Source: Synergistaceae bacterium (lineage in GTDB: Bacteria; Synergistota; Synergistia; Synergistales; Aminobacteriaceae). From it: a stretch of 64,000 bases of DNA. The stretch lies in assembly GCA_017444345.1 (NCBI GenBank), contig JAFSWW010000080.1:20570-84569 (forward strand), written 5' to 3'. Position 1 is the stretch's first letter, and every line of letters starts with the position of its first letter. Under the pieces are notes generated by a model. The model saw only the letters and a list, made by a program, of their open reading frames with translations, was not told the DNA's origin and did not search any database. Below are positions 8,101-52,143 of this stretch, piece after piece. The position numbers and the translations under genes were made by a program.

Positions 8101-9233
8101 TGATAAAGAAAATTATTTGCGTAATAGGCACAAGACCAGAGGCTATAAAAATGGCTCCCGTTATTCAGGAATTGAAGGCGGATAAAAATTTTTGCGTGAA
8201 GACTCTTGCGACTGGTCAGCATACTGACATGTTAAGGCAGGCACTTGACGATTTTGATATTAAGTCAGACTACGATTTAAACATTATGAAGGCTCGTCAA
8301 TCACTTGATTATATTACTTCGAGCGTATTAACAGGTGTCGGCGAAATTCTTGACTCTGACTCTCAAGATATGATTTTAGTACACGGCGATACTTCAACAA
8401 CTTTTGCGGCGGCTTTGGCTGGCTTTAATCGTCATATATCAGTCGGACATGTTGAGGCGGGACTCAGAAGCCATGATTTAAATCTGCCATTTCCTGAAGA
8501 AGCAAACAGGGTATTAACTGACAGAATAGCGAGTTTATTTTTTGCACCTACACAGGGCGATTATGATAATTTAATAAATGAAGGAATCTCACGCGATAAA
8601 ATTTTTATAACCGGCAATACTGTAATTGACGCGCTTTATAAGATTCTAGCAAAACAAGTGAATCAGCCTTCATACTTGCAAAATATAAATAATCGTCCGT
8701 TAATCCTAATGACAGCACACAGGCGCGAATCATGGGGGGAGACTCTCAAGGGCATTTGCGCGGGAGTAATTGATATTATTCTTGCAAGACCTGATGTAAT
8801 TTTCTTGATTCCCTTGCATAAAAATCCGGTTGTGCGTGAAGTTATTAGAGATTGCTTGAAAGATTACCAGCAAAATATAATATTTACTGAGCCGCTAAAT
8901 TATCCCGAATTCGTTAATGCAATGAATAAAAGCACGTTCATTTTATCAGACAGCGGAGGAGTCCAAGAAGAAGCAAGCGCAATTAATAAACCTGTCTTAA
9001 TAATGCGTACTTTGTCAGAACGTCCGGAGGCAGTGAATCACGGAACTTGTATATTAGTCGGCACAAAAAGGGACTCTATACGCGATGAGTCATTAAAATT
9101 ATTGAATGATTCGGAGTATATGCGGCAAATTCTAGCAAAAAATATAATGCCGTTCGGAAATGGTACAGCCTCGCAAAAGATTCACGGGGCAATTAATAAA
9201 TATTTTGCTATGAAGGAGGCTGATTTGACATAG
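8097..9233 (+). CDS. wecB: UDP-N-acetylglucosamine 2-epimerase (non-hydrolysing)
   Basis: It contains VIGTRPEAIKMAPV, VHGDTSTTFAAALA, HVEAGLRS and SDSGGVQEEA. Confidence 0.9.
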   Translation: MMIKKIICVIGTRPEAIKMAPVIQELKADKNFCVKTLATGQHTDMLRQALDDFDIKSDYDLNIMKARQSLDYITSSVLTGVGEILDSDSQDMILVHGDTSTTFAAALAGFNRHISVGHVEAGLRSHDLNLPFPEEANRVLTDRIASLFFAPTQGDYDNLINEGISRDKIFITGNTVIDALYKILAKQVNQPSYLQNINNRPLILMTAHRRESWGETLKGICAGVIDIILARPDVIFLIPLHKNPVVREVIRDCLKDYQQNIIFTEPLNYPEFVNAMNKSTFILSDSGGVQEEASAINKPVLIMRTLSERPEAVNHGTCILVGTKRDSIRDESLKLLNDSEYMRQILAKNIMPFGNGTASQKIHGAINKYFAMKEADLT

Positions 9234-9247
9234 AAAATTTAAATGTT

Positions 9248-10504
9248 ATGAAGATTACGGGGGGAATTCCTCTCAAAGGCACAATTAAGACTCAAGGCGC
9301 GAAAAATGCTGCTTTGCCCGTTATGGCTGTTGCTTTGTTATTGAGGGGTGAGACTCTGACGCTTGATAATGTCCCGGATTTGTATGATATTCACTCAATG
9401 ATGGAAATTTTGAGGACTCTGGGCGTTAATGTCGAATATAAACACGACGGCAGGAATTCACAGGCGATTTTCAGAGTCCCCGACGAACTAAAATGGGAAG
9501 TCCCTGAGTCTCTCGCTCGTAAAATGCGCGCTTCTTCTCTCATGTTAGGGCCGTTGCTTGCAAATTGCGGGCGGGTTTCTCTGCCATTGCCGGGGGGCTG
9601 TTCTATAGGAGCTAGACCCATAGATTTGCACTTGAAAGGTTTAAAGCAAATGGGCGCGGAAATCGACATTAAAGACGGAGTCGTTCATGCACGAGTAAAA
9701 GGCAGATTGCGGGGCCGGAGAATTTATCTTGACTTCCCATCAGTCGGAGCTACTGAAAATTTAATGATGGCTGCTTCTCTCGCGTCAGGTGAGACAATCA
9801 TAGAAAATATTGCGCGTGAACCTGAAATTGATAATCTAGCTGAAACTCTTAGATGTATAGGCGTAACTGTTGAGCTTGAAGGAGTCGGCGGTGTCAGAAT
9901 CAAGGGGATCGAGAAAGCTCATTCGGGCCGTGATAAAGTCATTCCCGACAGAATAGAGGCGTGTACTTATATTCTTGCAGGAGTAATGACTAACGGGCAT
10001 ATTAAAGTCGAAGATGTTATACCGTCTCACATTGATGCAATTCTCGCAAAAATGGAAGAGGCCCGCGCAAAATTTACAGTCAAGAAAAATGTCGTTGAAG
10101 TCTTCCCCGCTAAACGTCTTCACCCTGTTACTATTAAGACAATGCCATATCCCGGATTCCCGACTGATTCACAGCCTCAAATGGCCGCAGCTCTTTCACT
10201 GGCCGCAGGAGTCAGCACTATTGAAGAAAGCGTATTTCAAGCAAGATTTCTTTATGCTCAGGAATTAAATCGAATGGGCGCAAATATTCAGATTTCGAGG
10301 GATGTTGCTATAATTCGCGGAGTCGAAAATTTACACGGTGCGGCAGTAAAAGCTACTGACTTGAGGGCCGGGGCTGCTTTGATAATTGCGGGACTGGCTG
10401 CGAAAGGCGAGACTCGAGTCGAAGATATGATACACGTTTGGCGCGGTTATGAGGCCATTGACAAGAAATTAACGGACTTAGGAGCAAAAGTTGAACTCAT
10501 GTGA
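9248..10504 (+). CDS. murA: UDP-N-acetylglucosamine 1-carboxyvinyltransferase
   Basis: It contains GAKNAALP and the active-site Cys loop PGGCSIGARPIDLHLKG, and its length is typical of MurA. Confidence 0.95.
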   Translation: MKITGGIPLKGTIKTQGAKNAALPVMAVALLLRGETLTLDNVPDLYDIHSMMEILRTLGVNVEYKHDGRNSQAIFRVPDELKWEVPESLARKMRASSLMLGPLLANCGRVSLPLPGGCSIGARPIDLHLKGLKQMGAEIDIKDGVVHARVKGRLRGRRIYLDFPSVGATENLMMAASLASGETIIENIAREPEIDNLAETLRCIGVTVELEGVGGVRIKGIEKAHSGRDKVIPDRIEACTYILAGVMTNGHIKVEDVIPSHIDAILAKMEEARAKFTVKKNVVEVFPAKRLHPVTIKTMPYPGFPTDSQPQMAAALSLAAGVSTIEESVFQARFLYAQELNRMGANIQISRDVAIIRGVENLHGAAVKATDLRAGAALIIAGLAAKGETRVEDMIHVWRGYEAIDKKLTDLGAKVELM

Positions 10505-36509: not shown

Positions 36510-37362
36510 AGCAAGCAAAAATTTAGGGAGTCTGGCACTTGAGTCAATGTTAATAGAAGTGTCAGTAACTCCCAAGCCGGGATTAATTGACCGTAATAAT
36601 TCAGGAGCTCATAGAGATATGGGCTTCTTTACTTTTATGAAGAGTGCGGCGAGTCTTAATTCATGCTTTGAAGATTTTGCACAGGCTGGAGTCATTGCAG
36701 GTCAAGAAAAATTATTACCCGTTTTGCTATTTCCGGAACTGCGTAGAATCGGCATAATTGCAGAAAATGACATGTTTAGAGCGACTCAAGGCGTGAACAC
36801 TCACAAGGGAGAAATTTTTTCACTGGGAGTCTTAAGCGCGGCGGCCGGTTATTTATCGGGAATGAATGAAAATATAGACTCTGACTCGGTCATGAGCTTG
36901 GCCGGGAAGATTTGCGAGGGATTATGCGCGAGAGATTTTGCGGAATCAAGAAAGAAATCACGAAATGAACTCACTAAAGGGGAGAAAATTTTTATTGACT
37001 ATAATATAACAGGAATCAGGGGCGAGGCTGAGTCGGGCTATAAATCCGTGAAAGATATTTCATTGCCTGCACTAAGAAAATATTTATCAGAAAATTTCAC
37101 GCTTAATGACTCGTTAGCTAAGACACTAATACACTTAATAGCATTTGCACAAGACACTAATATAATTTCTCGTCATGATTTAGAGACAGCTAAAAACGTA
37201 ATGGATTCAGCACGGAAAATTTTAGAGAACGGCGCAGATTTAGACGATATATTTATGCTCGATCAGGAATTTATACAGCGCAATATAAGTCCGGGCGGTT
37301 CAGGTGATTTATTAGCAGTAACATATTTTATCTATGAACTTGATAAAAATTTATTGCTGTGA
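36496..37362 (+). CDS. citG: Triphosphoribosyl-dephospho-CoA synthase (CitG/MdcB family)
   Basis: It contains EVSVTPKPGLIDRNNSGAHRDM, NTHKG and GGSGDLLA. I prefer the Met at 36496, which overlaps the RND stop. Confidence 0.75.
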   Translation: MRTSKASKNLGSLALESMLIEVSVTPKPGLIDRNNSGAHRDMGFFTFMKSAASLNSCFEDFAQAGVIAGQEKLLPVLLFPELRRIGIIAENDMFRATQGVNTHKGEIFSLGVLSAAAGYLSGMNENIDSDSVMSLAGKICEGLCARDFAESRKKSRNELTKGEKIFIDYNITGIRGEAESGYKSVKDISLPALRKYLSENFTLNDSLAKTLIHLIAFAQDTNIISRHDLETAKNVMDSARKILENGADLDDIFMLDQEFIQRNISPGGSGDLLAVTYFIYELDKNLLL

Positions 37363-37860
37363 TTTAACTTGTGTGCAATATCCAGTAACAGTTAATACGT
37401 ATTGATCTGCGTTATATTCTGAAATATTTCTCTCTGCGTATGAAATTTTTGCGGGCGTGCATGATCCATCAGTGTAGAAATAAATAATTTCAGGTGAAAA
37501 TTGCCAGCCTTCACCGGTCGGAGAATTCCTTAAATTAACCTTGCGCCACTCTAAAACTTGCTTGTCATTATTATTAGCACTTCCGAGAAATGAGCTTATA
37601 CTGTCTTCGGGGATTTCTTTTTTCATGAGTGCTTCTACTTCAATCGCGCCGCGTTCTAAACCTTGTGATTTCTTGATAGAAAATTTTACAGGTGTCCCCG
37701 ATAATGACATGTCGCTGGCTTCCTCAAATGCACGTTGCAATACAGCTGAAGGGGGCTCGAAATAAAACGAGATTCGCGGGATGACCATTCCCGCGAGTGA
37801 GCCTGTAATCAGCAATACTATCATTATTTCAATGAGTGTAAATGCTTTCTTACTGCGCAA
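37351..37860 (-). CDS. Pseudopilin (GspH-like position) with a prepilin-type N-terminus
   Basis: The TTG at 37860 is preceded by GAGGA. The N-terminus is (M)RSKKAFTLIEIMIVLLITGSLAG, with Ala at -1. The longer 239-aa ORF overlaps gspG and is rejected. Confidence 0.65.
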   Translation of the reverse strand: MRSKKAFTLIEIMIVLLITGSLAGMVIPRISFYFEPPSAVLQRAFEEASDMSLSGTPVKFSIKKSQGLERGAIEVEALMKKEIPEDSISSFLGSANNNDKQVLEWRKVNLRNSPTGEGWQFSPEIIYFYTDGSCTPAKISYAERNISEYNADQYVLTVTGYCTQVKSQQ

Positions 37861-37864
37861 AATT

Positions 37865-38302
37865 TTAGTCCTCGTTCGAAATATCTGCGTTTGTGCCTTC
37901 TCCGCCCTCTTCACCGTCCGGGCCGTAGCTGACAATTGAGATTCTGCCGTTCTGATTGCGATAAACGTAGGGATTCCCCCATGGATCTTCAGGGACTTTT
38001 TTGAGATAGCCGCCCTCTTGATAGTGTTTAGGAACTGGCGATGTTGTAGGAGCTGTAACAAGTGCCTCAAGTCCCTGCTGTGTTGAAGGGTAAAATCCGT
38101 TGTGCATTCTGTACATTTCTAGAGCGTCTTCTATACTCTTTATTTGAGTTCGTGCTGTTGTGCGCTGTGCTTCTGCGACTTGAGGGCCGATTCTGGGAAC
38201 TACTAGGGCAGCCAGCAAACCTAGAATAACGACAACTACCATAATTTCAATCAGGGTAAAACCTGAACGGCGGCGCAATAAATATTTTTTCTTTTCTTGC
38301 AT
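37865..38302 (-). CDS. gspG: Major pseudopilin GspG
   Basis: It contains RRRSGFTLIEIMVVVVILGLLAALVVPRI, a GspG core (IKSIEDALEMYRMHNGFYPSTQQGLEALV, DPWGNPYVY) and a Ca-loop-like GPDGEEGG. AGGAGG precedes the ATG at 38302. Confidence 0.85.
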   Translation of the reverse strand: MQEKKKYLLRRRSGFTLIEIMVVVVILGLLAALVVPRIGPQVAEAQRTTARTQIKSIEDALEMYRMHNGFYPSTQQGLEALVTAPTTSPVPKHYQEGGYLKKVPEDPWGNPYVYRNQNGRISIVSYGPDGEEGGEGTNADISNED

Positions 38303-40991: not shown

Positions 40992-43136
40992 TTACTTCCT
41001 CCTGAGACTGCGCTGATACATATCTCTAAATCTTGCGTCAATATCAGCTTCTACGGGACTGGCTCCGATATTCGTTAAATCCGGTCTTGCGTTGTCAGGC
41101 ATTAATTTATTCACGTCGAAATTCATATCAGGCGACACAAAGCCCCTCGCAAATCCGGCAGCTCTCATTGTTGCGTGTCTCATTTCTTCAGGCGATTCGA
41201 TAATTTGAGGCGTTAAGAAAATTACAAAGTCAACTTTTTCCTTTTCCTTTGACAATTTCTGAAAGAGTCCGCCTATTAACGGAATATAAGACAAGCCGGG
41301 GACTTTACGCTTCATTGATTTTTCCGTTTCCTTGATCATGCCGCCTAAAATTATAGTCTCACCGTCTGCAACTACAACAGAAGTAATAACTTCACGCTTT
41401 GAAGTAGTCGGAGTAGTAACTCCTGAAGCAGTCATAACATCTTCAGTAGTCTGCTTTATATCCATTGCGACAAGATTCCCGCTCCTGATATGAGGTGTAA
41501 CTGTGAGAGTCAAGCCCGTATCTTTATAGTCATAATTATTCTGAATAGAATTCGGATTCGTTAAATCAGAAGTAGACCCCTTCATAACGGGAATAACATT
41601 ACCGACTTTGAACGTGCTTTCTTTGTTATCAGTACACATTAAGCGAGGCACTGACAATACATTAACTGCGTCATAACGCTTTAATAATTCAATCGTGGCA
41701 TACATTAATCCCATAGGCTGATAATTTGTAACTGTATAAGTAGATCCATTGCGCTCAAGTAATTCCTCACGCTTTGACAAATCATTGAACCATGTCATGA
41801 ACTGTGAAGGCACTGACCCCTCGCCGAGCGACATATTACCGCCCAGCAATAAATTATCCCACATTTGACCGCCTAAGATTGACCAGTCTATACCGTTGCG
41901 ATCTAAATTTGTTACGTTGATTTCAGCAATAAAGCCTCGTAATAAAATCTGTCTAGGCTGTATATCAATAGCGTCAAGAATCGGGACAAGTGCGTCATAT
42001 TGTCTCTGAGTCGCAGCAAAAATTAAACTGTTAGTAGCAACATCAGGAACTACAGCAGCTGTGAATTTTGCCGAGTCAGCTCCCAGCATTGTATTTGTTG
42101 AAGCTAAAACTTTCCCGACTTGTTCGGCGGCGGCGGTTGCGTCAATATTCTTTAACTTGTAAATGTGAAAATCGCCTATTTTCGGGTCAACGTCTAAATC
42201 ACTAATTATGCGGGCGGCCTTATCGATTGCGCTTGAACTCCCGACAACTACAACTTTTTTGCTTGGAACGTCGGCAATGGCATTTAATCCCTGAAGAGGG
42301 CCATTTGATTGAGCGATTGCGTTTAATTGTGCTGCTATAGTACCCGGATCTCCGTTATTGATTTCAAATGTCTTGCTTAATCTTGCACTTTGAGGCGTGT
42401 CCATTTTGCGGATTAACTCAACGCCTTTATTAACATCAATAGCCCGGCCCTGTAATAAAATATCGCGCCCGTTACCAACTGCCAAAGCTACGAGACTCGA
42501 TCCAAATGCTTGTTGAATAGCCGGTAATAAACTTTCAATTGTTACATAATCAATCGGGACTATATATGTTACAGTTTCTTCACCGGGTCCGGGGCCTGTT
42601 TTGCTCCTGAAGACATTAGGCGACGGACTATTACCGCCCTGACGAACTATTGAATAACTGCCCATGTTTTGCAGCGAAAAATTATACATCTGCAAAGTTG
42701 ATAACATGACTTCGCGGGCTTCTTTTATAGTAACAGGATGAGGCGAAATTATAGTTATTTTAGAATTTATATTTGGAGGCACAATTATATTTTCTTGCAA
42801 GACTTCAGACATAAAGCGCATAAATCTGACTAAATCGAAATCCTTAAAATTAAATTGTACGAGTCCCGCTCGTCTCATAGCTGCGGCAGAATCCATTAAT
42901 GCTTGTTCCTGCTCTGGAGTCATTGCGTCGCCTTGTCCTGATTGCGGTTGAGCTGCCGGCTGATTTTGTGCAGGTCTCGGCGGTGCAGGTTGTGCAGGCG
43001 GTGCAGGCGTATTATTATTTCTAGGTGTTGTTCTGCTAATTCTCCGTGTAGCTGACTCCACGCTAGAACTTGATAAATCACTTAATAAAGCTATACTCAA
43101 TAATATAATCAAAATTTTTATAAATCTTACTCTCAA
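40992..43136 (-). CDS. gspD: Secretin GspD family
   Basis: It has a signal peptide, a Pro/Gln/Ala-rich linker, N0/N1-like repeats and a C-terminal secretin domain (VPGLSYIPLIGGLFQ). Confidence 0.9.
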   Translation of the reverse strand: MRVRFIKILIILLSIALLSDLSSSSVESATRRISRTTPRNNNTPAPPAQPAPPRPAQNQPAAQPQSGQGDAMTPEQEQALMDSAAAMRRAGLVQFNFKDFDLVRFMRFMSEVLQENIIVPPNINSKITIISPHPVTIKEAREVMLSTLQMYNFSLQNMGSYSIVRQGGNSPSPNVFRSKTGPGPGEETVTYIVPIDYVTIESLLPAIQQAFGSSLVALAVGNGRDILLQGRAIDVNKGVELIRKMDTPQSARLSKTFEINNGDPGTIAAQLNAIAQSNGPLQGLNAIADVPSKKVVVVGSSSAIDKAARIISDLDVDPKIGDFHIYKLKNIDATAAAEQVGKVLASTNTMLGADSAKFTAAVVPDVATNSLIFAATQRQYDALVPILDAIDIQPRQILLRGFIAEINVTNLDRNGIDWSILGGQMWDNLLLGGNMSLGEGSVPSQFMTWFNDLSKREELLERNGSTYTVTNYQPMGLMYATIELLKRYDAVNVLSVPRLMCTDNKESTFKVGNVIPVMKGSTSDLTNPNSIQNNYDYKDTGLTLTVTPHIRSGNLVAMDIKQTTEDVMTASGVTTPTTSKREVITSVVVADGETIILGGMIKETEKSMKRKVPGLSYIPLIGGLFQKLSKEKEKVDFVIFLTPQIIESPEEMRHATMRAAGFARGFVSPDMNFDVNKLMPDNARPDLTNIGASPVEADIDARFRDMYQRSLRRK

Positions 43137-43523: not shown

Positions 43524-44504
43524 TTATTTCACGACATAACGCAAGGCCGTTGACTGCCCTTTACGAGTAACTTCAACGTCAAATCTCTCACTGTTCATGA
43601 GTGAATTAATAGAATTTGCTATATCGCCCATATTTGTGAACGGGATTCCATTAACGGACTTGATAATATCACCCTTTTGAACTCCTAAACGCTTTAATAT
43701 GCTTTCATTCTGGATCCATTGAACTTCGAGTCCTCCCGCGCTTTCATTAGGTCTGATTCTGATTCGCTTTAACTCGTCAAAAGGATTTTGCACGAGCTGA
43801 CTCACTAATTCGCTTGAGACTTCGCCGTCCTGTTTACCCGGTTCAGCAGCTACGATATTTCCGAGCTTGGCAGGTTCGGGCGTGTTTCTCTTAGGAGCGG
43901 GTGCAGGTTTAGGAGCTTCTGTTTTGACCGGGCCGAATACCATTTTTTTAGTAACTCGTTTCTTGCCCTGTGTGAAAGTTGCTTCACGATAACTGACACT
44001 CGATAATTTCCAGCGTTCTATTTCCTTCCCGATAAGAATTAAATTTAGATTTCCATTTTTCTCGACCCATGCGCTGATTCCCGGAAAAGTCCCCCGCAAA
44101 ATTACATCGTCTAAAGTAGTTGGAGGCTCTGGCGGTGTTACTTCTTTAGAGACCGGGGCGGGCTCATTTGATACGACTTTGAGCGGCGAAATCTGAAAAG
44201 GGTTTGACGAAATAAAAGCAGTGAATCCCCTGTCTTGATTCGATAAATTGCTGTCTTGAGCTTGACTCCCGGTAACTGCGCTGTCAACGACTCCGGAATT
44301 CCCGGCGAGAAAATCAAGCCCATAACCGAGTCCGACTCCAGCTAAACGGCCGGCAGCGAGTCCCACTAAAAGCGGCAATACTAACAGCCAAGTTTGATAA
44401 ATCTTCCCGCCCGACTCTTTCTGCGATGACTCCTTCTCCTGTTTATTTGCTTTAATACGCCTTACACGTGAAGACTGCAAAGCGTCTCTTAACCTGTCTA
44501 ACAT
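43524..44504 (-). CDS. gspC: GspC-like protein: TM anchor, Pro-rich linker and C-terminal PDZ domain
   Basis: It has a single TM (WLLVLPLLVGLAAG), a PAPAPKRNTPEP linker and a PDZ-like segment (LGVQKGDIIKSVNGIPFTNMGDI). Confidence 0.55.
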   Translation of the reverse strand: MLDRLRDALQSSRVRRIKANKQEKESSQKESGGKIYQTWLLVLPLLVGLAAGRLAGVGLGYGLDFLAGNSGVVDSAVTGSQAQDSNLSNQDRGFTAFISSNPFQISPLKVVSNEPAPVSKEVTPPEPPTTLDDVILRGTFPGISAWVEKNGNLNLILIGKEIERWKLSSVSYREATFTQGKKRVTKKMVFGPVKTEAPKPAPAPKRNTPEPAKLGNIVAAEPGKQDGEVSSELVSQLVQNPFDELKRIRIRPNESAGGLEVQWIQNESILKRLGVQKGDIIKSVNGIPFTNMGDIANSINSLMNSERFDVEVTRKGQSTALRYVVK

Positions 44505-44511
44505 TTATAAA

Positions 44512-45090
44512 TTATTTCCTCCTTAAGTACCAGCGATCGCCCTCTTGAACTAAAGGCAAGAAATTACGCAGCATATTCAAATTATTTGCAAATTCTTCGG
44601 GAACATTTAATTGCGCGTCAGATCGTCCAATTCTCATATTTGCGGGTGAAAAAGTTATATAGCCGTTGACTGCAAAATCTCCGTTAGTTCGTAATTGTTC
44701 CAGCAAGATTTCATTTCGCCCGGCTGTCAGCAAAAAACGTCCATCCCCAAAATTATAATTTGTCCCGAGTCTCAAATTTCCGCCTTTAAACGAAATATCA
44801 CAAACCGGAGCAAGGCTTAATATACTCGCTAAAATTCTCGGCCGTATAGTAATCGAACTCAAAGAAAAATTTACAGTCCCATTCAGGGCCAAATTACTAA
44901 CTGTGAAACCGTCCGACTCGCCTGATACATCAGAAAAATTTAAACGCATTCCACGAGCATTTAACTGAGAATGAGCTATTGACATTGCAAACTTGCCCAC
45001 TTCTCTATATGGCAGGAAAATCCATAATGCATAAACGAATCCCGCCAGCAATAATAAAATTTTTATGATAGTTAATAAAGATTTCTTCAT
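44512..45090 (-). CDS. Bitopic protein in the GspN-like position
   Basis: It has an N-terminal TM (IIKILLLLAGFVYALWIF) and a periplasmic domain of about 160 aa. The assignment rests on size, topology and context only. Confidence 0.35.
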   Translation of the reverse strand: MKKSLLTIIKILLLLAGFVYALWIFLPYREVGKFAMSIAHSQLNARGMRLNFSDVSGESDGFTVSNLALNGTVNFSLSSITIRPRILASILSLAPVCDISFKGGNLRLGTNYNFGDGRFLLTAGRNEILLEQLRTNGDFAVNGYITFSPANMRIGRSDAQLNVPEEFANNLNMLRNFLPLVQEGDRWYLRRK

Positions 45091-45612: not shown

Positions 45613-46908
45613 TTACCACCTTACGCGCATATCAAATCTAAATCCTATACCTGATACAAATTGAGTGTTATCGACTTGTGCGAGCCTTGCCCGGCCTTCC
45701 CATGCCTTCCTGAAATTCAAAACTGTAGTCATATCCGGTGCTGTTCCTGTGCAGTCGATTCCCTCGGAATTATAGCGAATTATATCAAGCCTTATATCCA
45801 TGCTTTGAGTCTGCGTAAAAATTTCGCCTATATCAGCAAGCACTTCTTCCAAAGGGTGAGCGGCTTGGCCTGTGTTAGTCAACGAGTCAATCTTATCGCG
45901 CGCAAGTGTTACAGGATTTGAGATTCGCCCGGTATGTGAAGGATCAAAATTTTGACGATAAATTTTTTCGCTGCGTGTTCTTAATTCTTGAACTTGTCCC
46001 TGAAGTTGATTCCAGCGTAAATAACTCGCTGATATGGCCGCGACTCCAAGCACTAAAAGCCAAATTGCCGCACGAGTCATAAATTTTATATTGCGCTCTA
46101 GGTCAATAGCTCCCTCAAGTGCCGAACGGGATAAATTTATATTATTCAGCCACGGACAAATTTTTAAACTCTCGCTAATCATGCCGCGAAATTCTTTATT
46201 AGACTCCTCGTCGTCCTCGTCATTGTTGCCTGATACGTTAATAATAAAATTCCCGCCGCGTTCTAATTCACGAGTTTTGCAGTAATTATCATACCAAGCT
46301 ATTTCTTTATTTTCCGAGTCCTCGCCTGTAACTTTCCGCCAGCGGTATAAAACGGGTTTATTATTCTGCCATAAAATCGAGCAAATATTTTCTTCGTCTA
46401 TATATGCAGTTATCCCCGTGCCGTTGTATTCTTTCAAGCGAGAAATAAAAGGCAATGGAGCGGGCCAAATTTTATTACTTGCGCCGGACTCATATGAGAA
46501 ACTAGGCAAATTTAACTCTTCGGGCGAAACATACCAAACAATTCCATTAACTGAACGCCCGGACTTTGCGATAACGACGGGGAATAATTCGAGCTTCCCG
46601 GCCGCTGAATATGGCATAACTTGAAGTCTTAAGGCCTCGCGAATCTTAGTATTACCGGAAAAAGGGAACGCAAAATCTTCAAGTGAAAGCGACCTCATAG
46701 GGACAAGAGTAATAAAATTTTTCGCTGATTCTTGACTTGATGCGATAATCTTTATAACTTTGCGGCTCTCTTGATACTCTTCGCCGTTCTCGTCATTTGT
46801 ACCCTTCTCGTGAATCTCTAGAATCCTGCGAAATTCTGTATCAGTGAAATCTTCTCCCGTTTTCTTCCTGAATAAATTTTCTATGTTCATATTTAAATCT
46901 AGCTTCAT
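45613..46908 (-). CDS. GspL-like (or fused PilM/PilN-like) assembly protein
   Basis: It has a cytoplasmic domain of about 285 aa, one TM (AAIWLLVLGVAAISASYL) and a periplasmic domain of about 130 aa. The ATG at 46908 follows GGGAGGA and overlaps the gspK stop (ATGA). Confidence 0.45.
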   Translation of the reverse strand: MKLDLNMNIENLFRKKTGEDFTDTEFRRILEIHEKGTNDENGEEYQESRKVIKIIASSQESAKNFITLVPMRSLSLEDFAFPFSGNTKIREALRLQVMPYSAAGKLELFPVVIAKSGRSVNGIVWYVSPEELNLPSFSYESGASNKIWPAPLPFISRLKEYNGTGITAYIDEENICSILWQNNKPVLYRWRKVTGEDSENKEIAWYDNYCKTRELERGGNFIINVSGNNDEDDEESNKEFRGMISESLKICPWLNNINLSRSALEGAIDLERNIKFMTRAAIWLLVLGVAAISASYLRWNQLQGQVQELRTRSEKIYRQNFDPSHTGRISNPVTLARDKIDSLTNTGQAAHPLEEVLADIGEIFTQTQSMDIRLDIIRYNSEGIDCTGTAPDMTTVLNFRKAWEGRARLAQVDNTQFVSGIGFRFDMRVRW

Positions 46909-47873
46909 GATTCCTCCCATTTGATTATCTGCTTAGAGTCTCTATCTAATATTATATTAAATGATTTGCCCCCGTTGCCTGTATCGTCAAGACATTCAAT
47001 TTTCAGCAAAAAATAACGGCTCTTGAATCCGATTAAATTTGTTAATTTGTTGCTGCTTTTAGCTGAAAATCCGGGAAGTTTCCGCAAATCCGCCATATCT
47101 TTAATAGGTGTCTCTGCTCTAGTGCGTTCGATTCTTTCTGCGACTCCTCCTGTATCAAGACCGGGCATTAACTCCATGACATAAACGGGAGCGACATTTA
47201 TATTAATTTTGCCGTCGCTGTAAACTGTGCAGTAATCAACAAATCCCTTTTTGCCTTCTGAACCGTATAATAATTCTTGGGGAATATCGCGGCTCAACAT
47301 CATTAATTCTGACGGGTCATAGGGTGCTCTATTAATGAATTCTTCACGTTCAGAACTTCCGACTCTGGGTTTGTCGTTCCTGTCAATAAAGTCAAGCACT
47401 ACATTTGAATTATTTACATTGCCGATTTTGCGCCATAATTCTTCCCATAATTCCGAGATTTCGCGCCTCAAAGTATTACCATCGGGCAAGAATAAATTTC
47501 TAAGGGGGATTTTATCATCTAAGGGGACAATTTGAGCGACCCAGATTCCTAAATCATTTCCGAGCGGCAAAATAAAAGGCTGGTACCATCTTTGATCGGC
47601 GGGGCTGTCATATTTAAATTGTGCGGCGACTTGAGTCAATGCTTTCATTACTACAATTGCGAGAACATCGGCCATGCTTCTGCGTTCAATTGCGCGTAAT
47701 TCTTGGCCTGTAGTCCTGACTTGAGCACGAACGAACCAGCTAAAAGCCGTAGCACATGAAATTAATAACACTCCCAGCATTAAGACACTCACGAGGACAA
47801 AGCCGGATTTTCTTGATTTATTTTTACGGGAACACGATAACGCTTTCGAGTTCGTCAAGATTTTCGCTTTCAT
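46905..47873 (-). CDS. gspK: Minor pseudopilin GspK
   Basis: It has a prepilin-like N-terminus without Glu5 (RKSGFVLVSVLMLGVLL) and a T2SSK-like HhH region (ININVAPVYVMELMPGLD...IKDMADLRKLPGF). Confidence 0.65.
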   Translation of the reverse strand: MKAKILTNSKALSCSRKNKSRKSGFVLVSVLMLGVLLISCATAFSWFVRAQVRTTGQELRAIERRSMADVLAIVVMKALTQVAAQFKYDSPADQRWYQPFILPLGNDLGIWVAQIVPLDDKIPLRNLFLPDGNTLRREISELWEELWRKIGNVNNSNVVLDFIDRNDKPRVGSSEREEFINRAPYDPSELMMLSRDIPQELLYGSEGKKGFVDYCTVYSDGKININVAPVYVMELMPGLDTGGVAERIERTRAETPIKDMADLRKLPGFSAKSSNKLTNLIGFKSRYFLLKIECLDDTGNGGKSFNIILDRDSKQIIKWEES

Positions 47874-48474
47874 TATTATTTACTCCGTTATTAATTATTT
47901 GCGTATTATCTAAATTTTTGCGTGAAATTTTTATATATATTCCATGAGGAAGAGGCCCCGCAAAATCTTTCTTGTTATCATCGGCGCGTGAATTTGTAGG
48001 TACTTCGACTTTAAATGCGCTTACATAGGGCAGAACGAGCTGACCGTCTTCACCTCTTAATTTTTCGTGATTTATAGAATTCGGAGCCTTCCCGGGAATG
48101 ATCCATCTATATAGACCGGGGATTATATTATTATTATTAATTCCGCCCTCGTTGAGCTTATAAACGAGAGTCCCGGCCGGCAGCCCCTGAACAGACGGAG
48201 CAGAACTCATAATCATTAAAATATCGTCATCTCTATTTCCCATTGATTCATGATCTATAATAGTTATCACATTTGCGGCCAGTCTCATGGCAGAATTTAG
48301 ATCACGCGTTATAAAATTCATTGTGCGCTGTAATGCCGAAACATCCGAGTATCTTTCTTGAGTCTCTACTACTCTTCTTACTGTAAAGACTACGGGAGCA
48401 AGCGCAAGAGTGGCCAGCATTCCCGTAAGCATAACAGCAATTAATATTTCTAAGAGTGTAAAACCTTTTCTCAT
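47824..48474 (-). CDS. Pseudopilin (GspJ-like size)
   Basis: It begins MRKGFTLLEILIAVMLTGMLATLALAP and is 216 aa long. Its start overlaps the stop of the upstream Wzy_C gene. Confidence 0.7.
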   Translation of the reverse strand: MRKGFTLLEILIAVMLTGMLATLALAPVVFTVRRVVETQERYSDVSALQRTMNFITRDLNSAMRLAANVITIIDHESMGNRDDDILMIMSSAPSVQGLPAGTLVYKLNEGGINNNNIIPGLYRWIIPGKAPNSINHEKLRGEDGQLVLPYVSAFKVEVPTNSRADDNKKDFAGPLPHGIYIKISRKNLDNTQIINNGVNNNESENLDELESVIVFP

Positions 48475-50555
48475 TTGCTAGTATTATTATTTCGCGCTTC
48501 AGGTGCCGGACCGTTCGCAATAACAAGAGCGTCAAATATATTTCCTTTTTCGTCTCTGTGACGCTGCCTCACTAAATGATAAGTACCGGGCTTGAAATAG
48601 CTTACCAGCTCGATTAATGCATTCTGAATCTGATATTTTTGCGCATAAGTCAATAACCTGTTAATATCTTCTGAGTGAGGCTCCCTGTGAAAATGCTGCC
48701 ATAAAGTATTAAAGCCTCGTGCAATTAATTCGCGGTCGTTAGTCTGTTCACCTAACTGTAAATAATGATACCCGATATTTCTCTGTGCTTCCTCGTATAC
48801 AATCGGATGTTTTGCGGCCTCATTGAGTAAATTAATTTGCAAATTTGGATTCTGAGTCGATAAGGCCTGACGTAATACATAATTCCCGTAAATCCCATCT
48901 GAAATATATAACACTCCGGCAATTGATGAGGCTATACAAATCAGCCCGATTATATTCATGAATGCTTTTGACTTGAAAGCAGGAAATTTCAATTTATCAC
49001 CGAAAAATTCACGATTAGACAAGGCAAATGCTAAAGTTATCCATACCATATTCTCTATCCTGTGAAATGGACGGGTGAAAATCGCACAAAAAGTTATCAA
49101 TGACGTTAAACCGAGTGCCCAGACAGCATTAATATTTATTTCCTTGCGCTTGATTAAGCCCCTGACAGCCGGAACGAACCACGCAAGATACATAATAATT
49201 AATATTATCCCCCCGATATAGCCGCCTTCACAGAACCATTGCAAAAACTCATTATGCGCCCAGTGGGTATATTGCCATACGTACCAGTCATTATTAAATA
49301 TTTTGAAGCCCTCGCGCTGTGCCTCCATATAGTGCCATTTATATTGACCAGTGCCGACTCCTAATGGGTGCTCTCTGAACATTGCGTAAGAAGTTGACCA
49401 GATCCCCCGCCTGTTGCCTATATTTTCCGCGTGTTCAATTATATCCGCAGTCTTCTCAATAAGACCGCCTGCACGGCTTGAACTCGTAGAGACCCAGAAG
49501 ACAGCGAGCAAGACAATCATAACCGCCCCGAATCTGATTACATAATTACGGTTAAATTTCCATGCCGCTATAATTAACATGACAAGAAAGCCGCTCACAA
49601 GTGCAAGAAATCCCGATCTGCTCGTCGAATTCAGCAAGCCCCAGAAATTTATACCTGCTAAGAATAATAAAATCACGCTGTAATAAACTCTCTTGTCATT
49701 GCCGAGATAAAACGCGAGCGCAAAAGTTCCCAGCATGAATAATCCGGCCAAGATCGCAAGTAAAATATTTCCATGTTCAACCGCAAATTTTAAGCATATA
49801 ACGCCCAGTGCAAGACTTACAGCAGGGGAATAAATTTTTTTGCCGTGTTCGTCCGAGTCATTTTTCCATGCGTCATAGACAAATAAATATATAGCTCCTA
49901 AAGCTGCTACGGCTGTCCATAATCCGAACATGTTTTGCTGTGCAGTGTTGCCGATATAATTTCCGGGAGTCGGCAAGATTATGCTGCTAAATTGCTTGAG
50001 TGATTCAAAAATTGTCCCGTCAAGAAATGAGAAATTATTTAGATCCCTAATCTGAAGCTCTGCATATAACACGTTCAAAGCCGCGTTTAAATTCCCTAAT
50101 AATAATACATAACGCAAGCCGTTATCAGGAAATGACGAGACGCTTATAACATAGAATGCCCAGACAGCAAGAAAGCATACCATCTCAAGCGCGAATCCAG
50201 TCGGAGAAAATATTTTTACCCATAAAGGCTGTAATGCAGAATAAGCAAGCAAAACCGCCCATATAATCGCAAATATATCAATCTTGAATCTAATTTTATC
50301 CTTGCCATAAATCAATAATCTCAAGCCGGCAACAAATACAGCTATTGCAATGGGAACTCCTGTAACTGTCCATTTTATAACGTGCAGAGTGTCAGCAAAT
50401 TTTATACCGGAATATACTAGATTAGGCAGTGCCAGCGATATAAACCATAGGGGCAGCAATATCCAAACAGGCACTAGGGGAACTTGAATATATTTATCGG
50501 GTATCTTATTAATTTTTGCCCTATCAAGTGAAAGCAGCTTTTCTTTTTTCTTCAT
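48471..50555 (-). CDS. Wzy_C (O-antigen ligase / PglL-TfpO-like) polytopic protein with a TPR-like C-terminal domain
   Basis: It has at least 10 TM segments and the Wzy_C signature region (SRSGFLALVSGF...YTHWAHNEFLQWFCEGGYIGG). A soluble helical C-terminus of about 150 aa follows. Confidence 0.7.
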   Translation of the reverse strand: MKKKEKLLSLDRAKINKIPDKYIQVPLVPVWILLPLWFISLALPNLVYSGIKFADTLHVIKWTVTGVPIAIAVFVAGLRLLIYGKDKIRFKIDIFAIIWAVLLAYSALQPLWVKIFSPTGFALEMVCFLAVWAFYVISVSSFPDNGLRYVLLLGNLNAALNVLYAELQIRDLNNFSFLDGTIFESLKQFSSIILPTPGNYIGNTAQQNMFGLWTAVAALGAIYLFVYDAWKNDSDEHGKKIYSPAVSLALGVICLKFAVEHGNILLAILAGLFMLGTFALAFYLGNDKRVYYSVILLFLAGINFWGLLNSTSRSGFLALVSGFLVMLIIAAWKFNRNYVIRFGAVMIVLLAVFWVSTSSSRAGGLIEKTADIIEHAENIGNRRGIWSTSYAMFREHPLGVGTGQYKWHYMEAQREGFKIFNNDWYVWQYTHWAHNEFLQWFCEGGYIGGIILIIMYLAWFVPAVRGLIKRKEININAVWALGLTSLITFCAIFTRPFHRIENMVWITLAFALSNREFFGDKLKFPAFKSKAFMNIIGLICIASSIAGVLYISDGIYGNYVLRQALSTQNPNLQINLLNEAAKHPIVYEEAQRNIGYHYLQLGEQTNDRELIARGFNTLWQHFHREPHSEDINRLLTYAQKYQIQNALIELVSYFKPGTYHLVRQRHRDEKGNIFDALVIANGPAPEARNNNTSK

Positions 50556-50583
50556 GTATTAATTAACTCCTTAAAAAATTTAT

Positions 50584-52143
50584 TTATTGCACAAGTGTAT
50601 ATCTCTCAACAGGAGCAAATGAATCGCTGAATGCCGGTATTGCTGGATTTGGCACAAAGGGTTCAAGCCACTGATGAGAAAGTAAGGCCGAAATTTTTGC
50701 GTCAGGAGTAGGCGACACTGTAGAAGCTGTATCTCCCATTCCTACGAGTATAATATTTTGCAAAATTTGCGCGTATTTAGGCTCATCGAATAAAACCGGA
50801 AATATCATCATAGTACTAAATGACGTATTAAACGCTTTATATATCCCATGAAAGACTCCGGATTTAGTGCCGTAAAGAGACGCTATAATATTTACAATTA
50901 ATGTGCCGTCGGGATTCAATAATTCGCGCAGTCTCTCAGCAGTCTCTATCGTGGTCATCTGAAACGGTATCGAAGTCCATGAGCTGAAAGTGTCCATTAA
51001 AATCGCGTCATATTTCTCGAAACCGGCTTTTATTGCACGATTTAAGAAAGTTCTTGCGTCCTCGTGAAAGATTCTCAAATTCGGGTGATCCTTCAAATCA
51101 AAATATACCCGCGCCGTGTCAGTTATTCCCGGGTCAAGCTCTACTACATCAATCGAGACATCAGGACGTTCTGACAATAAATAACGAGGGAAGCAATAAC
51201 CGCCCCCGCCAAGCATTAAAACTTTTTTTGTGTCAGGCTTATAGTGAAATGCTAAATCATAAAATTTTGTGTAACTGCTTACTAATTCCGAGGGATTATC
51301 AAGATACATTAATGATTGAGCCGCGTCGGGATTTGTGATTAATACTCTTAAAGGCCGGCCCGTTCGAGTATTCCTTGCGTCATGGTCAATTATTGAAAGG
51401 TGATTATACGCTGTATCAATTTGGACTCCGCGAGGTGTAAAGGGTAAGCCTAAATTTTCAGCCGCATATGTAGCTCCGGCAAGTATAAATAATAATAAAA
51501 TATTTCTCCATGCTCCTGTGTATACGAGAACTGACAATAAAGCAATCAAGCTCGATAAAAGCATTAAGATAATCCCCGACGGAAATAGAGAAATCAGCAC
51601 AAAGCCGCCTAAAAATGTTCCCAGAATGCTCCCGGCTGAATTCAAAGCCGATAAACGCCCGACGACTGCACCCGACGAGTCAACATTCTGCATAGCAAGA
51701 CGAGCTACAAAGGGCGATACCATACCGAGTAATATGCTGGCTGGAGCAAATATAATTACTGCTGCAAAGACTGAAGCGAGATATAAATTTAATACAAGAG
51801 ACTGCAGCCACGTTAAAATCATGTTGCTTGAATATGCAGTGATTGCTATTATTATCGCAGTAAAAATTAATATCCGTCCGAGTAATTTTGCGTCTGGATT
51901 CTTGTCAACAACTGCACCGCCCAGCCAGTTCCCTATACATAGACTCGTCATAATTATGCCGATTAATGCAGTCCATACTATTAATGATGTCCCGAAAAAA
52001 GGAGCTACCATCCGCGAGCCTGTTAACTCAAGTATCATAGTAGCTGCTCCGCTGAAAAATGAAACTAGCTGTAAACGTAATTGAATCTTGACTCGTAATC
52101 TATTATTATTTCTGTAATCGTAATCATTCAAAATTTTTGTCAA
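50584..52143 (-). CDS. Fused membrane domain plus spermidine-synthase-like (class I SAM-fold) protein
   Basis: The N-terminal ~220 aa is polytopic. The C-terminus contains KVLMLGGGGYCFPRYLL, VDVVELDPGI and DAILMD, which are SpeE-like motifs. Confidence 0.65.
   Translation of the reverse strand: MTKILNDYDYRNNNRLRVKIQLRLQLVSFFSGAATMILELTGSRMVAPFFGTSLIVWTALIGIIMTSLCIGNWLGGAVVDKNPDAKLLGRILIFTAIIIAITAYSSNMILTWLQSLVLNLYLASVFAAVIIFAPASILLGMVSPFVARLAMQNVDSSGAVVGRLSALNSAGSILGTFLGGFVLISLFPSGIILMLLSSLIALLSVLVYTGAWRNILLLFILAGATYAAENLGLPFTPRGVQIDTAYNHLSIIDHDARNTRTGRPLRVLITNPDAAQSLMYLDNPSELVSSYTKFYDLAFHYKPDTKKVLMLGGGGYCFPRYLLSERPDVSIDVVELDPGITDTARVYFDLKDHPNLRIFHEDARTFLNRAIKAGFEKYDAILMDTFSSWTSIPFQMTTIETAERLRELLNPDGTLIVNIIASLYGTKSGVFHGIYKAFNTSFSTMMIFPVLFDEPKYAQILQNIILVGMGDTASTVSPTPDAKISALLSHQWLEPFVPNPAIPAFSDSFAPVERYTLVQ

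What the first reader, a model, noticed from the sequence alone, without database searches (positions are those of the whole stretch)
48471..50555. Wzy_C / PglL-TfpO-like protein as the first gene of the pseudopilin operon: possible pseudopilin O-glycosylation
This 694-aa polytopic protein has the O-antigen-ligase (Wzy_C) signature region (SRSGFLAL...WAHNEFLQWFCEGGYIGG) and a helical, TPR-like soluble C-terminus. Its stop overlaps the start of the next pseudopilin gene (48471-48474), which argues for translational coupling.

In type IV pilus systems, Wzy_C-family enzymes (TfpO/PilO, PglL) act as O-oligosaccharyltransferases that glycosylate pilins, and they are often encoded next to the pilin gene. 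I am not aware of an equivalent enzyme hard-wired into a T2SS pseudopilin operon. If it acts on pseudopilins or on secreted cargo, that would be a new accessory function.
Basis: partly seen in the sequence, partly recalled or inferred. Interest (0 to 1): 0.6.

Follow-up and report, generated by a model that had tools for sequence, protein, structure and literature searches.

The report
Sugar-ligase gene heading Synergistota secretion operon
A rumen Synergistota bacterium encodes a membrane sugar-transferring enzyme with a protein-binding arm directly in front of its type II secretion genes; this layout is old and widespread in the phylum, so the enzyme probably puts sugars on a protein of that secretion pathway, though nobody has tested it.

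Summary
ORF 48471-50555 (-) encodes a 694-aa polytopic Wzy_C protein. Its stop overlaps the start of the first minor pseudopilin gene (ATGA).

It belongs to a discrete Synergistota family that scores far above all other Wzy_C proteins. The WaaL/PglL-type residues R313, R382, H434 and E501 are invariant. Beyond the WaaL-like core it has one extra TM helix and a predicted periplasmic domain with a TPR fold.

In 70 of 84 informative loci the gene sits immediately upstream of the Synergistota-type T2SS operon (ppJ-K-L-M-N-C-pilin-D-E-F-G). These include Dethiosulfovibrio, Cloacibacillus, Acetomicrobium and Fretibacterium, with three different upstream contexts.

The link is not absolute. In Aminivibrio the T2SS lies elsewhere, and the gene has no T2SS beside it in Thermovirgaceae and Pyramidobacter. 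In one unlinked clade it sits beside a Synerg-CTERM cargo gene.

The nearest outside relatives are Wzy_C-TPR and Wzy_C-Wzy_C_2 proteins, one of them next to a pilin gene. Compact WaaLs are not among the closest.

Best reading (about 0.5): a PglL/TfpO-like protein O-oligosaccharyltransferase serving the T2SS pathway, with the acceptor unresolved (minor pseudopilin or Synerg-CTERM cargo). The main rival is a WaaL-type ligase with inherited synteny. No glycan evidence exists.

The parts
48471..50555 (-). Wzy_C-TPR gene: 694 aa, about 15 TM helices, N-terminus inside, predicted Und-PP-glycan transferase
   Evidence: ORF; Pfam Wzy_C; AF2 pLDDT 85.6, pTM 0.87; invariant R313, R382, H434, E501; positive-inside count
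49197..49655 (-). Wzy_C catalytic region (residues 301-453): SRS Arg, NRRG Arg, GVGxGQYKWHY loop, WAHNEF His
   Evidence: Pfam; profile alignment to CmWaaL 7TPG with Arg/Arg/His aligned
48474..48974 (-). Extra TM helix plus C-terminal TPR-like domain and beta-hairpin (residues 528-694), predicted periplasmic
   Evidence: AF2 pLDDT 95.3; Foldseek top hits are TPR proteins; collinear with the Wzy_C_2 region of P0350; topology
47824..48474 (-). First minor pseudopilin (GspJ-like, 216 aa); start overlaps the Wzy_C stop; conserved S/T-rich loop at residues 87-97
   Evidence: N_methyl / TIGR02532; ATGA overlap; loop conservation
46905..47873 (-). GspK-like minor pseudopilin
   Evidence: NF037980, E=6.6e-17 (below its curated cut-off)
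45613..46920 (-). GspL, Synergistota type
   Evidence: NF041617, 224 bits
45094..45603 (-). GspM, Synergistota type
   Evidence: NF041618, E=5.6e-17 (below its curated cut-off)
44512..45090 (-). GspN, Synergistota type
   Evidence: NF041619, E=5.7e-35 (below its curated cut-off)
43524..44504 (-). GspC with PDZ domain, Synergistota type
   Evidence: NF041616, 211 bits
43190..43522 (-). Small pseudopilin (110 aa, GspI/H-like)
   Evidence: N_methyl
40992..43136 (-). GspD secretin
   Evidence: TIGR02517, 361 bits
39486..40988 (-). GspE ATPase
   Evidence: PF00437, 438 bits
38328..39482 (-). GspF platform protein
   Evidence: PF00482
37865..38338 (-). GspG major pseudopilin
   Evidence: PF08334 and N_methyl
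37351..38070 (-). Last pseudopilin (GspH-like). The prepilin motif is at residues 72-96 of the listed ORF, so the true start is probably internal.
   Evidence: N_methyl at 72-96
50584..52143 (-). Fused MFS/spermidine-synthase gene 28 nt upstream, probably co-transcribed; linked only in the closest clade
   Evidence: NF037959, 239 bits; upstream of Wzy_C in 45 of the loci read here, plus this window; RNA-run contig 50478-50628

Best explanation
The gene encodes a protein O-oligosaccharyltransferase of the Wzy_C (WaaL/PglL/TfpO) superfamily.

**Proposed mechanism**
- The polytopic core binds an undecaprenyl-pyrophosphate-linked glycan at the periplasmic face. Binding would use the invariant R313, R382 and R495.
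- It transfers the glycan en bloc to a Ser/Thr hydroxyl, with the invariant H434 as base and E501 assisting.
- An extra TM helix places a three-repeat TPR-like arm in the periplasm, next to the active site, where it would hold the protein acceptor.

**Genomic setting**
- The gene is ancestrally the leader gene of the Synergistota-type T2SS operon. It is usually translationally coupled to the first minor pseudopilin gene.
- The acceptor is therefore most likely a protein of that pathway.

**Candidate acceptors**
- (a) The GspJ-like minor pseudopilin, at its exposed S/T-rich loop (MSSAPSVQG, residues 87-97).
- (b) The Ser/Gly-rich membrane-proximal stub of Synerg-CTERM surface proteins, which this T2SS type is thought to export.

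**Status of each step**
- Shown: fold class, residue conservation, gene linkage and its phylogenetic breadth.
- Inferred: topology, donor, protein (rather than lipid A) acceptor, and the identity of the acceptor.
For: **Catalytic equipment**
- Wzy_C domain.
- The family profile hits CmWaaL 7TPG at E=6e-10, with SRS-Arg, NRRG-Arg and AHNE-His aligned to its TRG, VRLKIW and AHND motifs.
- R313, R382, H434, R495 and E501 are invariant in 36 sequences that go down to 33% identity.
- PglS and PglL use the same Arg/His/Glu set (PMC12800693).

**Architecture like O-OTases, not WaaL**
- Fifteen TM helices. The positive-inside count fits an N-in topology with the C-terminal domain outside.
- The C-terminal domain model has pLDDT 95, and all top Foldseek hits are TPR proteins.
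- PglS has 13 TM helices plus a large C-terminal periplasmic domain.
- PglL and the S-layer O-OTase WsfB carry a C-terminal TPR motif (PMC2943079).

**Neighbours in sequence space**
- The family is discrete: members score at least 210 bits, and the next proteins score 94 bits or less.
- Of the 67 next-best full-length proteins, 33 have TPR repeats and 6 have Wzy_C_2.
- The best near-full-length outside match, P0350, aligns over 466 columns through the C-terminal domain (hhalign probability 99.4%). It carries Wzy_C_2 and sits directly after a pilin gene.

**Linkage**
- Wzy_C is followed by ppJ-K-L-M-N-C-pilin-D-E-F in 70 of 84 informative loci. The gap ranges from an overlap to about 80 nt.
- This holds behind three different upstream contexts: dnaB/parB-like, MFS-SpdSyn and others.
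- Linked examples include D. peptidovorans DSM 11002, Cloacibacillus, Acetomicrobium and F. fastidiosum.
- In L053 the operon is split, and Wzy_C stays with the pseudopilin genes.

**Link to cargo**
- This T2SS type co-occurs with the Synerg-CTERM signal (Haft preprint).
- In the unlinked clade L067/L069/L078, the divergent neighbour of Wzy_C is a TIGR04564 Synerg-CTERM protein.

**Other support**
- Contigs from RNA runs span the Wzy_C/ppJ junction.
- O-OTase genes are commonly adjacent to their targets (PMC3643930 abstract).
Against: - No direct evidence of a glycoprotein exists.
- PF11846 (Wzy_C_2), PF15864 (PglL_A) and the TPR HMMs do not hit any of 36 members. No NCBIfam subfamily claims the protein.
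- The only solved relative by sequence is a WaaL.
- The gene also lies in an old housekeeping block (rpsF-ssb-rpsR-DUF2232-rplI-dnaB-parB-like). Part of the conserved adjacency may therefore be inherited synteny.
- Linkage was lost at least three times. Aminivibrio keeps both the gene and the T2SS, but apart.
- Pyramidobacter and Thermovirgaceae keep the gene with no T2SS beside it.
- The major pseudopilin GspG is encoded about 10 kb away.
- The ppJ C-terminus is a conserved Pro, so the TfpO/TfpM mode of C-terminal Ser/Thr glycosylation does not fit.
- The cargo adjacency is a single evolutionary event.
Confidence: 0.5

Rival explanations
1. It is the phylum's housekeeping WaaL-type ligase. 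It joins an Und-PP-linked O-antigen or LOS oligosaccharide to lipid A-core. Its place before the T2SS operon is inherited gene order with no shared function.
For: - The only PDB relative by sequence is CmWaaL, with the same Arg/Arg/His residues.
- Public annotation calls it 'O-antigen ligase family protein'.
- It looks vertically inherited across Synergistota lineages and sits in an ori-type housekeeping block after dnaB.
- It is kept where no T2SS is adjacent.
- The window carries a WecA-like GT4 gene and wecB, so Und-PP-sugar donors exist.
Against: - WaaL has 12 TM helices and no C-terminal periplasmic domain. This protein has an extra TM helix plus a TPR-like arm.
- Among its nearest neighbours, 33 of 67 carry TPR repeats and 6 carry Wzy_C_2.
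- Identity between families is 42-50%. From general knowledge, that is high for WaaL.
- The gene travelled with the pseudopilin genes through at least two changes of upstream context.
Confidence: 0.2
2. It is a general (PglL-like) O-oligosaccharyltransferase that glycosylates many periplasmic and surface proteins. It has no special tie to the T2SS, and the adjacency is historical.
For: - It has O-OTase-like architecture.
- It is present in every Synergistota lineage sampled, with or without an adjacent T2SS.
- From general knowledge, general O-OTases such as Neisseria PglL are not encoded beside their targets.
- In V. cholerae a general PglL still affects T2SS output indirectly (PMC6901666).
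Against: - A tight, often overlapping junction with the first pseudopilin gene is seen in 70 loci.
- The gene stays with the pseudopilin genes when the operon is split (L053) or moved.
- In one unlinked clade it is adjacent to a Synerg-CTERM gene.
Confidence: 0.17
3. It is a Wzy-type polymerase or another glycolipid-modifying enzyme of the Wzy_C superfamily, or a catalytically silent scaffold of the T2SS inner-membrane platform.
For: - Wzy_C covers polymerases as well as ligases (Pfam family definition).
- A TPR arm could dock onto GspL, GspM or GspC.
Against: - Arg/Arg/His/Glu are invariant across the family, which argues for catalysis.
- No Wzx, Wzz or glycosyltransferase genes lie in the operon.
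- The best matches are ligase/O-OTase-like proteins.
Confidence: 0.08

Closest known systems
Pilin-dedicated O-oligosaccharyltransferases encoded next to their pilin: TfpO/PilO (P. aeruginosa, Acinetobacter), PglS (A. baylyi, with ComP), TfpM (Moraxellaceae)
   Same: - Wzy_C core with Arg/His/Glu active-site residues.
- One more TM helix than WaaL and a C-terminal periplasmic domain.
- The gene abuts a prepilin-type gene.
   Different: - Here the neighbour is a T2SS minor pseudopilin, not a type IV pilin, and the enzyme gene comes first.
- The C-terminal domain is TPR-like and is not recognised by the Wzy_C_2 HMM.
- The pseudopilin ends in Pro, so C-terminal Ser/Thr glycosylation is excluded.
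- The family is separated from all others by a gap of more than 100 bits.
General O-OTase PglL (Neisseria, Burkholderia, V. cholerae) and the S-layer O-OTase WsfB (Paenibacillus alvei)
   Same: - Wzy_C domain plus a C-terminal TPR motif (PMC2943079).
- PglL of V. cholerae influences T2SS-dependent secretion (PMC6901666).
   Different: - No PglL_A domain.
- The gene is hard-wired into the secretion operon rather than standing alone.
O-antigen ligase WaaL (Cupriavidus metallidurans, PDB 7TPG/7TPJ)
   Same: - It is the only solved structure found by sequence (E=6e-10).
- The Arg/Arg/His residues align.
   Different: - WaaL has about 410 aa and 12 TM helices with a cytoplasmic C-terminus.
- This protein has 694 aa, about 15 TM helices and a periplasmic TPR-like arm.
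Synerg-CTERM / MrtS / divergent T2SS sorting system of Synergistota (Haft, bioRxiv 10.1101/2023.06.07.544157)
   Same: The downstream genes are that T2SS type: GspC (NF041616) and GspL (NF041617) score above their curated cut-offs, and GspM (NF041618) and GspN (NF041619) are best hits below theirs. In one clade the gene neighbours a TIGR04564 protein.
   Different: The word 'ligase' does not occur in the main text of that paper, so no such enzyme is listed among its components. A role in the pathway is my inference.

Membership tests
Wzy_C superfamily (PF04932; WaaL / Wzy / PglL / TfpO) | Match to PF04932 above the gathering score | tested here: met
   61.1 bits against a cut-off of 31.7, residues 301-453. 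All 36 family members match.
Wzy_C superfamily (PF04932; WaaL / Wzy / PglL / TfpO) | Conserved periplasmic Arg, Arg and His (the H[NSQ]x9Gxx[GTY]-type motif) | tested here: met
   R313, R382 and H434 are invariant and align to the CmWaaL motifs. The sequence reads H434-N-EFLQWFCEG-G-YI-G.
WaaL O-antigen ligase | Compact 12-TM protein with a cytoplasmic C-terminus and no extra soluble domain | tested here: not met
   694 aa, about 15 TM helices, an extra TM helix and a 140-aa TPR-like domain.
WaaL O-antigen ligase | Ligates Und-PP-glycan to lipid A-core | not testable with these tools
   Needs complementation of a waaL mutant, or LPS analysis of a knockout.
PglL/TfpO-type protein O-oligosaccharyltransferase | Wzy_C_2 (PF11846) C-terminal domain | tested here: inconclusive
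   No direct HMM hit at E<=10. However, the family profile aligns collinearly through this region with P0350, which is PF11846-positive (residues 388-555).
PglL/TfpO-type protein O-oligosaccharyltransferase | PglL_A (PF15864) N-terminal domain | tested here: not met
   No hit in any of 36 members.
PglL/TfpO-type protein O-oligosaccharyltransferase | C-terminal periplasmic domain or TPR motif beside the active site | tested here: met
   TPR fold. Predicted outside by TM count and the positive-inside rule. Compare PglS, PglL and WsfB. The topology is predicted, not measured.
PglL/TfpO-type protein O-oligosaccharyltransferase | Gene adjacent to a pilin-type acceptor gene (pilin-specific classes) | tested here: met
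   ATGA overlap with a prepilin-type gene. The adjacency holds in 70 of 84 loci.
PglL/TfpO-type protein O-oligosaccharyltransferase | Transfers glycan to Ser/Thr of a protein | not testable with these tools
   Needs glycoproteomics, or reconstitution in a glyco-competent E. coli.
Synergistota-type T2SS operon (NF041616-NF041619) | GspC/L/M/N of the SYNERG subclass downstream | tested here: met
   NF041617 at 224 bits and NF041616 at 211 bits are above their cut-offs. NF041618 and NF041619 are the best hits but below theirs.

The most novel reading that the evidence does not exclude
The Wzy_C-TPR enzyme is the missing attachment step of the Synerg-CTERM sorting pathway.

- The Cys-containing C-terminal signal is processed at the inner membrane by the CPBP protease MrtS.
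- The enzyme then glycosylates the Ser/Gly-rich stub, or couples it to an Und-PP-derived glycan or glycolipid.
- That stub lies exactly at the periplasmic membrane surface, where the enzyme's active site sits.
- The T2SS, whose operon the enzyme leads, would then carry the modified protein to the cell surface.

This would be a glycan-based anchoring route, analogous to A-LPS attachment in the T9SS, and a new accessory function for a T2SS.
Probability: 0.13. Interest if true: 0.8.

Novelty: new variant of a known kind. Interest (0 to 1): 0.56.

Why it matters
- **For T2SS biology.** From general knowledge, T2SS operons are not known to carry a glycan-transferring enzyme, and searches of the held paper library found no report of a glycosylated pseudopilin. 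A phylum-wide leader gene of this kind would add a post-translational step to a secretion machine that is otherwise well understood.
- **For the Synerg-CTERM pathway.** That surface-protein pathway has been described only in silico. This gene gives it a concrete, testable extra component.
- **For Wzy_C-TPR proteins in general.** These are common in uncultured phyla and uncharacterised. Here cultured hosts exist (Dethiosulfovibrio, Cloacibacillus, Fretibacterium).
- **For glycoengineering.** A new O-OTase class with its own sequon could be useful for bioconjugates.

Tried and rejected
- **The genome search and the fetch from genomes were shut**. I could not make a genome-wide count of Wzy_C paralogues, a separate WaaL, MrtS, or Synerg-CTERM proteins. 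I also could not do strict co-occurrence profiling.
- **Foldseek on the full-length model** gave only meaningless helical-bundle hits (TM-scores below 0.2). I used the sequence profile and a separate model of the C-terminal domain instead.
- **Promoter and terminator scans** around the gene were no better than shuffled sequence.
- **Pro/Ala/Ser-rich linkers in GspC and GspD** looked like possible PglL sequons. They are not conserved across orthologues, so I dropped them.
- **TfpO/TfpM-style C-terminal Ser/Thr glycosylation:** ppJ ends in a conserved Pro.
- **The 141-aa proteins downstream of Wzy_C in L067/L069** have a Cys+TM+Arg/Lys tail, but TIGR04564 does not recognise them. I report them only as look-alikes.
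- **The supplement of the Haft preprint**, which lists the nine cassette genes found by phylogenetic profiling, is not held. I cannot say whether this gene was among them.
- **No Synerg-CTERM-like tail** was found in the window's ORFs by pattern search.
- **RNA evidence** comes from assembled contigs of metatranscriptome runs. These have no strand information and may include DNA carry-over.
Full report
**1. The observation**

The minus-strand ORF 48471-50555 encodes 694 aa. AAGGAG lies 8 nt before its ATG. TGA and the ATG of the next gene share the bases ATGA at 48471-48474. Pfam finds one domain, Wzy_C (61 bits, cut-off 31.7, residues 301-453). Wzy_C_2, PglL_A and TPR models give nothing even at E<=10, and NCBIfam has no family for the protein.

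The 13 co-directional genes downstream form a complete type II secretion operon of the divergent Synergistota subclass. GspL (NF041617) and GspC (NF041616) score above their curated cut-offs. GspM, GspN and GspK are best hits. The operon also has GspD/E/F/G and five prepilin-type genes.

One detail of the finding needs correcting. A fused MFS/spermidine-synthase gene ends only 28 nt upstream on the same strand, with no terminator-like site between. Contigs from metatranscriptome runs span both this junction (50478-50628) and the Wzy_C/pseudopilin junction (48300-48505 and 48330-48522). The gene is expressed in gut samples and is probably co-transcribed with both neighbours. These contigs have no strand and may contain DNA.

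**2. The protein**

Two searches returned 419 and 637 full-length homologues. Every one that carries a source name is labelled Synergistota and annotated 'O-antigen ligase family protein'.

In a search of 1.84 billion cluster representatives the family is discrete. Members score at least 210 bits, and the next proteins score 94 bits or less.

Across 36 sequences that go down to 33% identity, about 60 positions are invariant. They include R313 (SRS), R382 (NRRG), the GVGxGQYKWHY loop, H434 (WAHNEF), and R495 and E501 (TRPFHRIEN).

A profile of the family hits one solved structure, the WaaL of Cupriavidus metallidurans (7TPG, E=6e-10). The two Arg and the His align to its TRG, VRLKIW and AHND motifs. 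The same Arg/His/Glu set is proposed for the O-OTases PglS and PglL (PMC12800693). The enzyme therefore looks catalytically competent.

AlphaFold2 gives a confident model (pLDDT 85.6, pTM 0.87) with about 15 TM helices. Counting Lys and Arg in the loops fits an N-in topology. In it the last three core helices correspond to the last three of WaaL. A Lys-rich cytoplasmic loop (518-529) and one extra TM helix (530-553) then place residues 554-694 in the periplasm. This topology is a prediction.

That C-terminal part, modelled alone (pLDDT 95.3), is a stack of about six helices followed by a beta-hairpin. Its best Foldseek matches in the PDB are uniformly TPR proteins: SPY and OGT TPR arms, consensus CTPR3, HOP and MamA. 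The probability is about 1, over about 101-104 aligned columns at rmsd 3.5-4.6, but with modest E-values near 1e-2. 'TPR-like' is therefore right by fold but not by sequence HMM. The helical part is present in all orthologues. The hairpin is found only in the Fretibacterium-like and termite-gut clades.

**3. Conservation of the link to the T2SS**

I fetched 80 loci from species-representative genomes and 12 more through GspL and Wzy_C homologues. I mapped the window's proteins onto them with tblastn and iterated profile HMMs.

*Linked loci.* Of 84 loci with readable DNA downstream of Wzy_C, 70 have the GspJ-like pseudopilin gene directly after it and, where the DNA reaches, the further T2SS genes K-L-M-N-C-pilin-D-E-F. 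The gap ranges from an overlap to about 80 nt. Named examples are:
- Fretibacterium fastidiosum SGP1
- an Acetomicrobium MAG
- Dethiosulfovibrio peptidovorans DSM 11002
- Cloacibacillus

*Upstream context.* In the deep-branching linked loci the upstream genes are rpsF-ssb-rpsR-DUF2232-rplI-dnaB, often followed by a ParB/Noc-like gene. That looks like the ancestral arrangement. Part of the conservation could therefore be plain inherited synteny, so rearrangements are the more telling evidence.

*Rearrangements that kept the link.*
- In the rumen/Fretibacterium clade the upstream block was replaced by trkA-trkH-MFS/SpdSyn.
- In the termite-gut and oral clades it was replaced by other genes.
- In both cases Wzy_C stayed with the pseudopilin genes.
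- In L053 the operon is split, and Wzy_C remains with ppJ-K-L and a divergent GspG/H pair.

*Rearrangements that broke the link.*
- On a tree of the protein, unlinked loci need at least three changes.
- In Aminivibrio and Thermovirgaceae, Wzy_C stays behind dnaB-parB and faces glutamine synthetase III.
- In Pyramidobacter it stands alone.
- Aminivibrio still has the T2SS, moved next to feoAB and headed by a 291-aa PF09924 (LPG_synthase_C-like) gene.

The link is therefore ancient and usually tight, but it is not obligatory.

**4. A second link, to the presumed cargo**

The Haft preprint (10.1101/2023.06.07.544157) reports that this T2SS subclass co-occurs with the Synerg-CTERM sorting signal and a CPBP protease, MrtS. 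The signal is a Ser/Gly cluster, an invariant Cys, a TM segment and basic residues. The word 'ligase' does not occur in its main text, and its supplement is not held.

In the unlinked clade L067/L069/L078, the gene divergently upstream of Wzy_C encodes a 620-720-aa protein with a TIGR04564 Synerg-CTERM tail, above the curated cut-off. In L067 and L069 a 141-aa Ig-like lipoprotein with a similar Cys-TM-Arg/Lys tail follows Wzy_C, but the curated model does not recognise it. This is one evolutionary event, so it is a lead rather than proof.

**5. Ligase of lipid A, or of protein?**

Four observations favour a protein acceptor:
- PglS has 13 TM helices and a large C-terminal periplasmic domain that forms a cleft with the core.
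- PglL and the S-layer O-OTase WsfB carry a C-terminal TPR motif.
- All 67 nearest full-length proteins outside the family have Wzy_C. Of these, 33 have canonical TPR repeats and 6 have Wzy_C_2.
- P0350, the best near-full-length outside match, aligns over 466 columns right through the extra TM helix and C-terminal domain (hhalign probability 99.4%). It has Wzy_C_2 over that same region and lies directly downstream of a 152-aa pilin gene.

Three observations argue against:
- The curated O-OTase HMMs miss the protein.
- The only solved relative is a WaaL.
- The gene is retained where no T2SS is adjacent.

**6. Candidate acceptor sites (inference only)**

The GspJ-like pseudopilin has a loop at residues 87-97 (MSSAPSVQG in the window). 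Position 90 is Ser or Thr in 94% of 72 orthologues, and 54 of the 68 orthologues next to Wzy_C have [ST]..P there. The four orthologues aligned from the Aminivibrio-type operon, which has no Wzy_C leader, lack four residues of exactly this loop. That is a single lineage. The protein ends in a conserved Pro, so the TfpO/TfpM C-terminal mode is excluded.

The alternative acceptor is the Ser/Gly stub of Synerg-CTERM proteins, which would sit at the membrane surface beside the active site.

A WecA-like GT4 gene and wecB in the window show that Und-PP-sugar donors can be made.

**7. Verdict**

My odds are:
- about 0.5: a PglL/TfpO-like protein O-OTase serving the T2SS pathway. Within this, roughly 0.3 for a pseudopilin acceptor and 0.15-0.2 for cargo.
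- about 0.2: a WaaL-type ligase with inherited synteny.
- about 0.17: a general O-OTase.
- the remainder: other roles.

Searches of the held literature found no description of such a gene in a T2SS operon. The closest functional precedent is that V. cholerae PglL alters T2SS output.

Earlier notes of this scan mention Wzy_C-TPR genes beside pilin-like operons in other phyla. I treat these as untested leads. It is a new variant of the pilin-linked O-OTase theme and is worth an experiment in a cultured Synergistota.

Noticed in passing
L083:7598-8473, L085:5681-6556, L087:7364-8239, L089:7607-8482: In Aminivibrio-type genomes the T2SS operon has moved next to feoAB. It is headed by a 291-aa PF09924 (LPG_synthase_C / MprF C-terminal-like) gene, which overlaps the first pseudopilin gene in L083 and L089. 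A different lipid- or aminoacyl-transferase-like enzyme thus occupies the slot that Wzy_C holds elsewhere. NCBIfam has no name for it.
   Followed up: partly
L067:7860-9782(-), L069:2006-4177(-), L078:7735-9603(-): Proteins of 620-720 aa with a TIGR04564 Synerg-CTERM tail are encoded divergently from Wzy_C in a clade where the T2SS is not adjacent. No Pfam domain was found in the L078 protein.
   Followed up: partly
L067:11871-12296(+), L069:6117-6542(+): A 141-aa lipoprotein-like Ig-fold protein lies directly after Wzy_C. Its tail (SPSLGCSVGGG + TM with Pro + RK) resembles a Cys-type sorting signal but is missed by TIGR04564.
   Followed up: partly
window 47824-48474 (ppJ residues 87-97): A conserved S/T-rich loop (MSSAPSVQG) in the first minor pseudopilin has a 4-aa deletion only in the lineage whose T2SS operon lacks the Wzy_C leader.
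   Followed up: partly
window 7177-10504: The window carries a WecA/MraY-family GT4 gene (7177-8100), a UDP-GlcNAc 2-epimerase gene (8097-9233) and murA (9248-10504). This is an initiating route to Und-PP-linked sugars about 40 kb from the ligase gene.
   Followed up: no
L072, L073: Short contigs filed under Candidatus Saccharibacteria and Mariniphaga (Bacteroidota) MAGs carry a Wzy_C gene that branches next to the Synergistaceae L076 gene at very short distance in the tree. They are probably mis-binned Synergistota contigs.
   Followed up: no
window 37351-38070: The listed 239-aa ORF of the last pseudopilin has its prepilin motif at residues 72-96 and overlaps the GspG gene by about 200 nt. 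The real start is probably an internal codon.
   Followed up: no
L081:5801-6745 and equivalents in L084, L086, L092: A ParB/Noc-like gene (TIGR04285, 229 bits, below its cut-off) sits between dnaB and Wzy_C in several Synergistota. In D. peptidovorans it overlaps Wzy_C by 4 nt.
   Followed up: no
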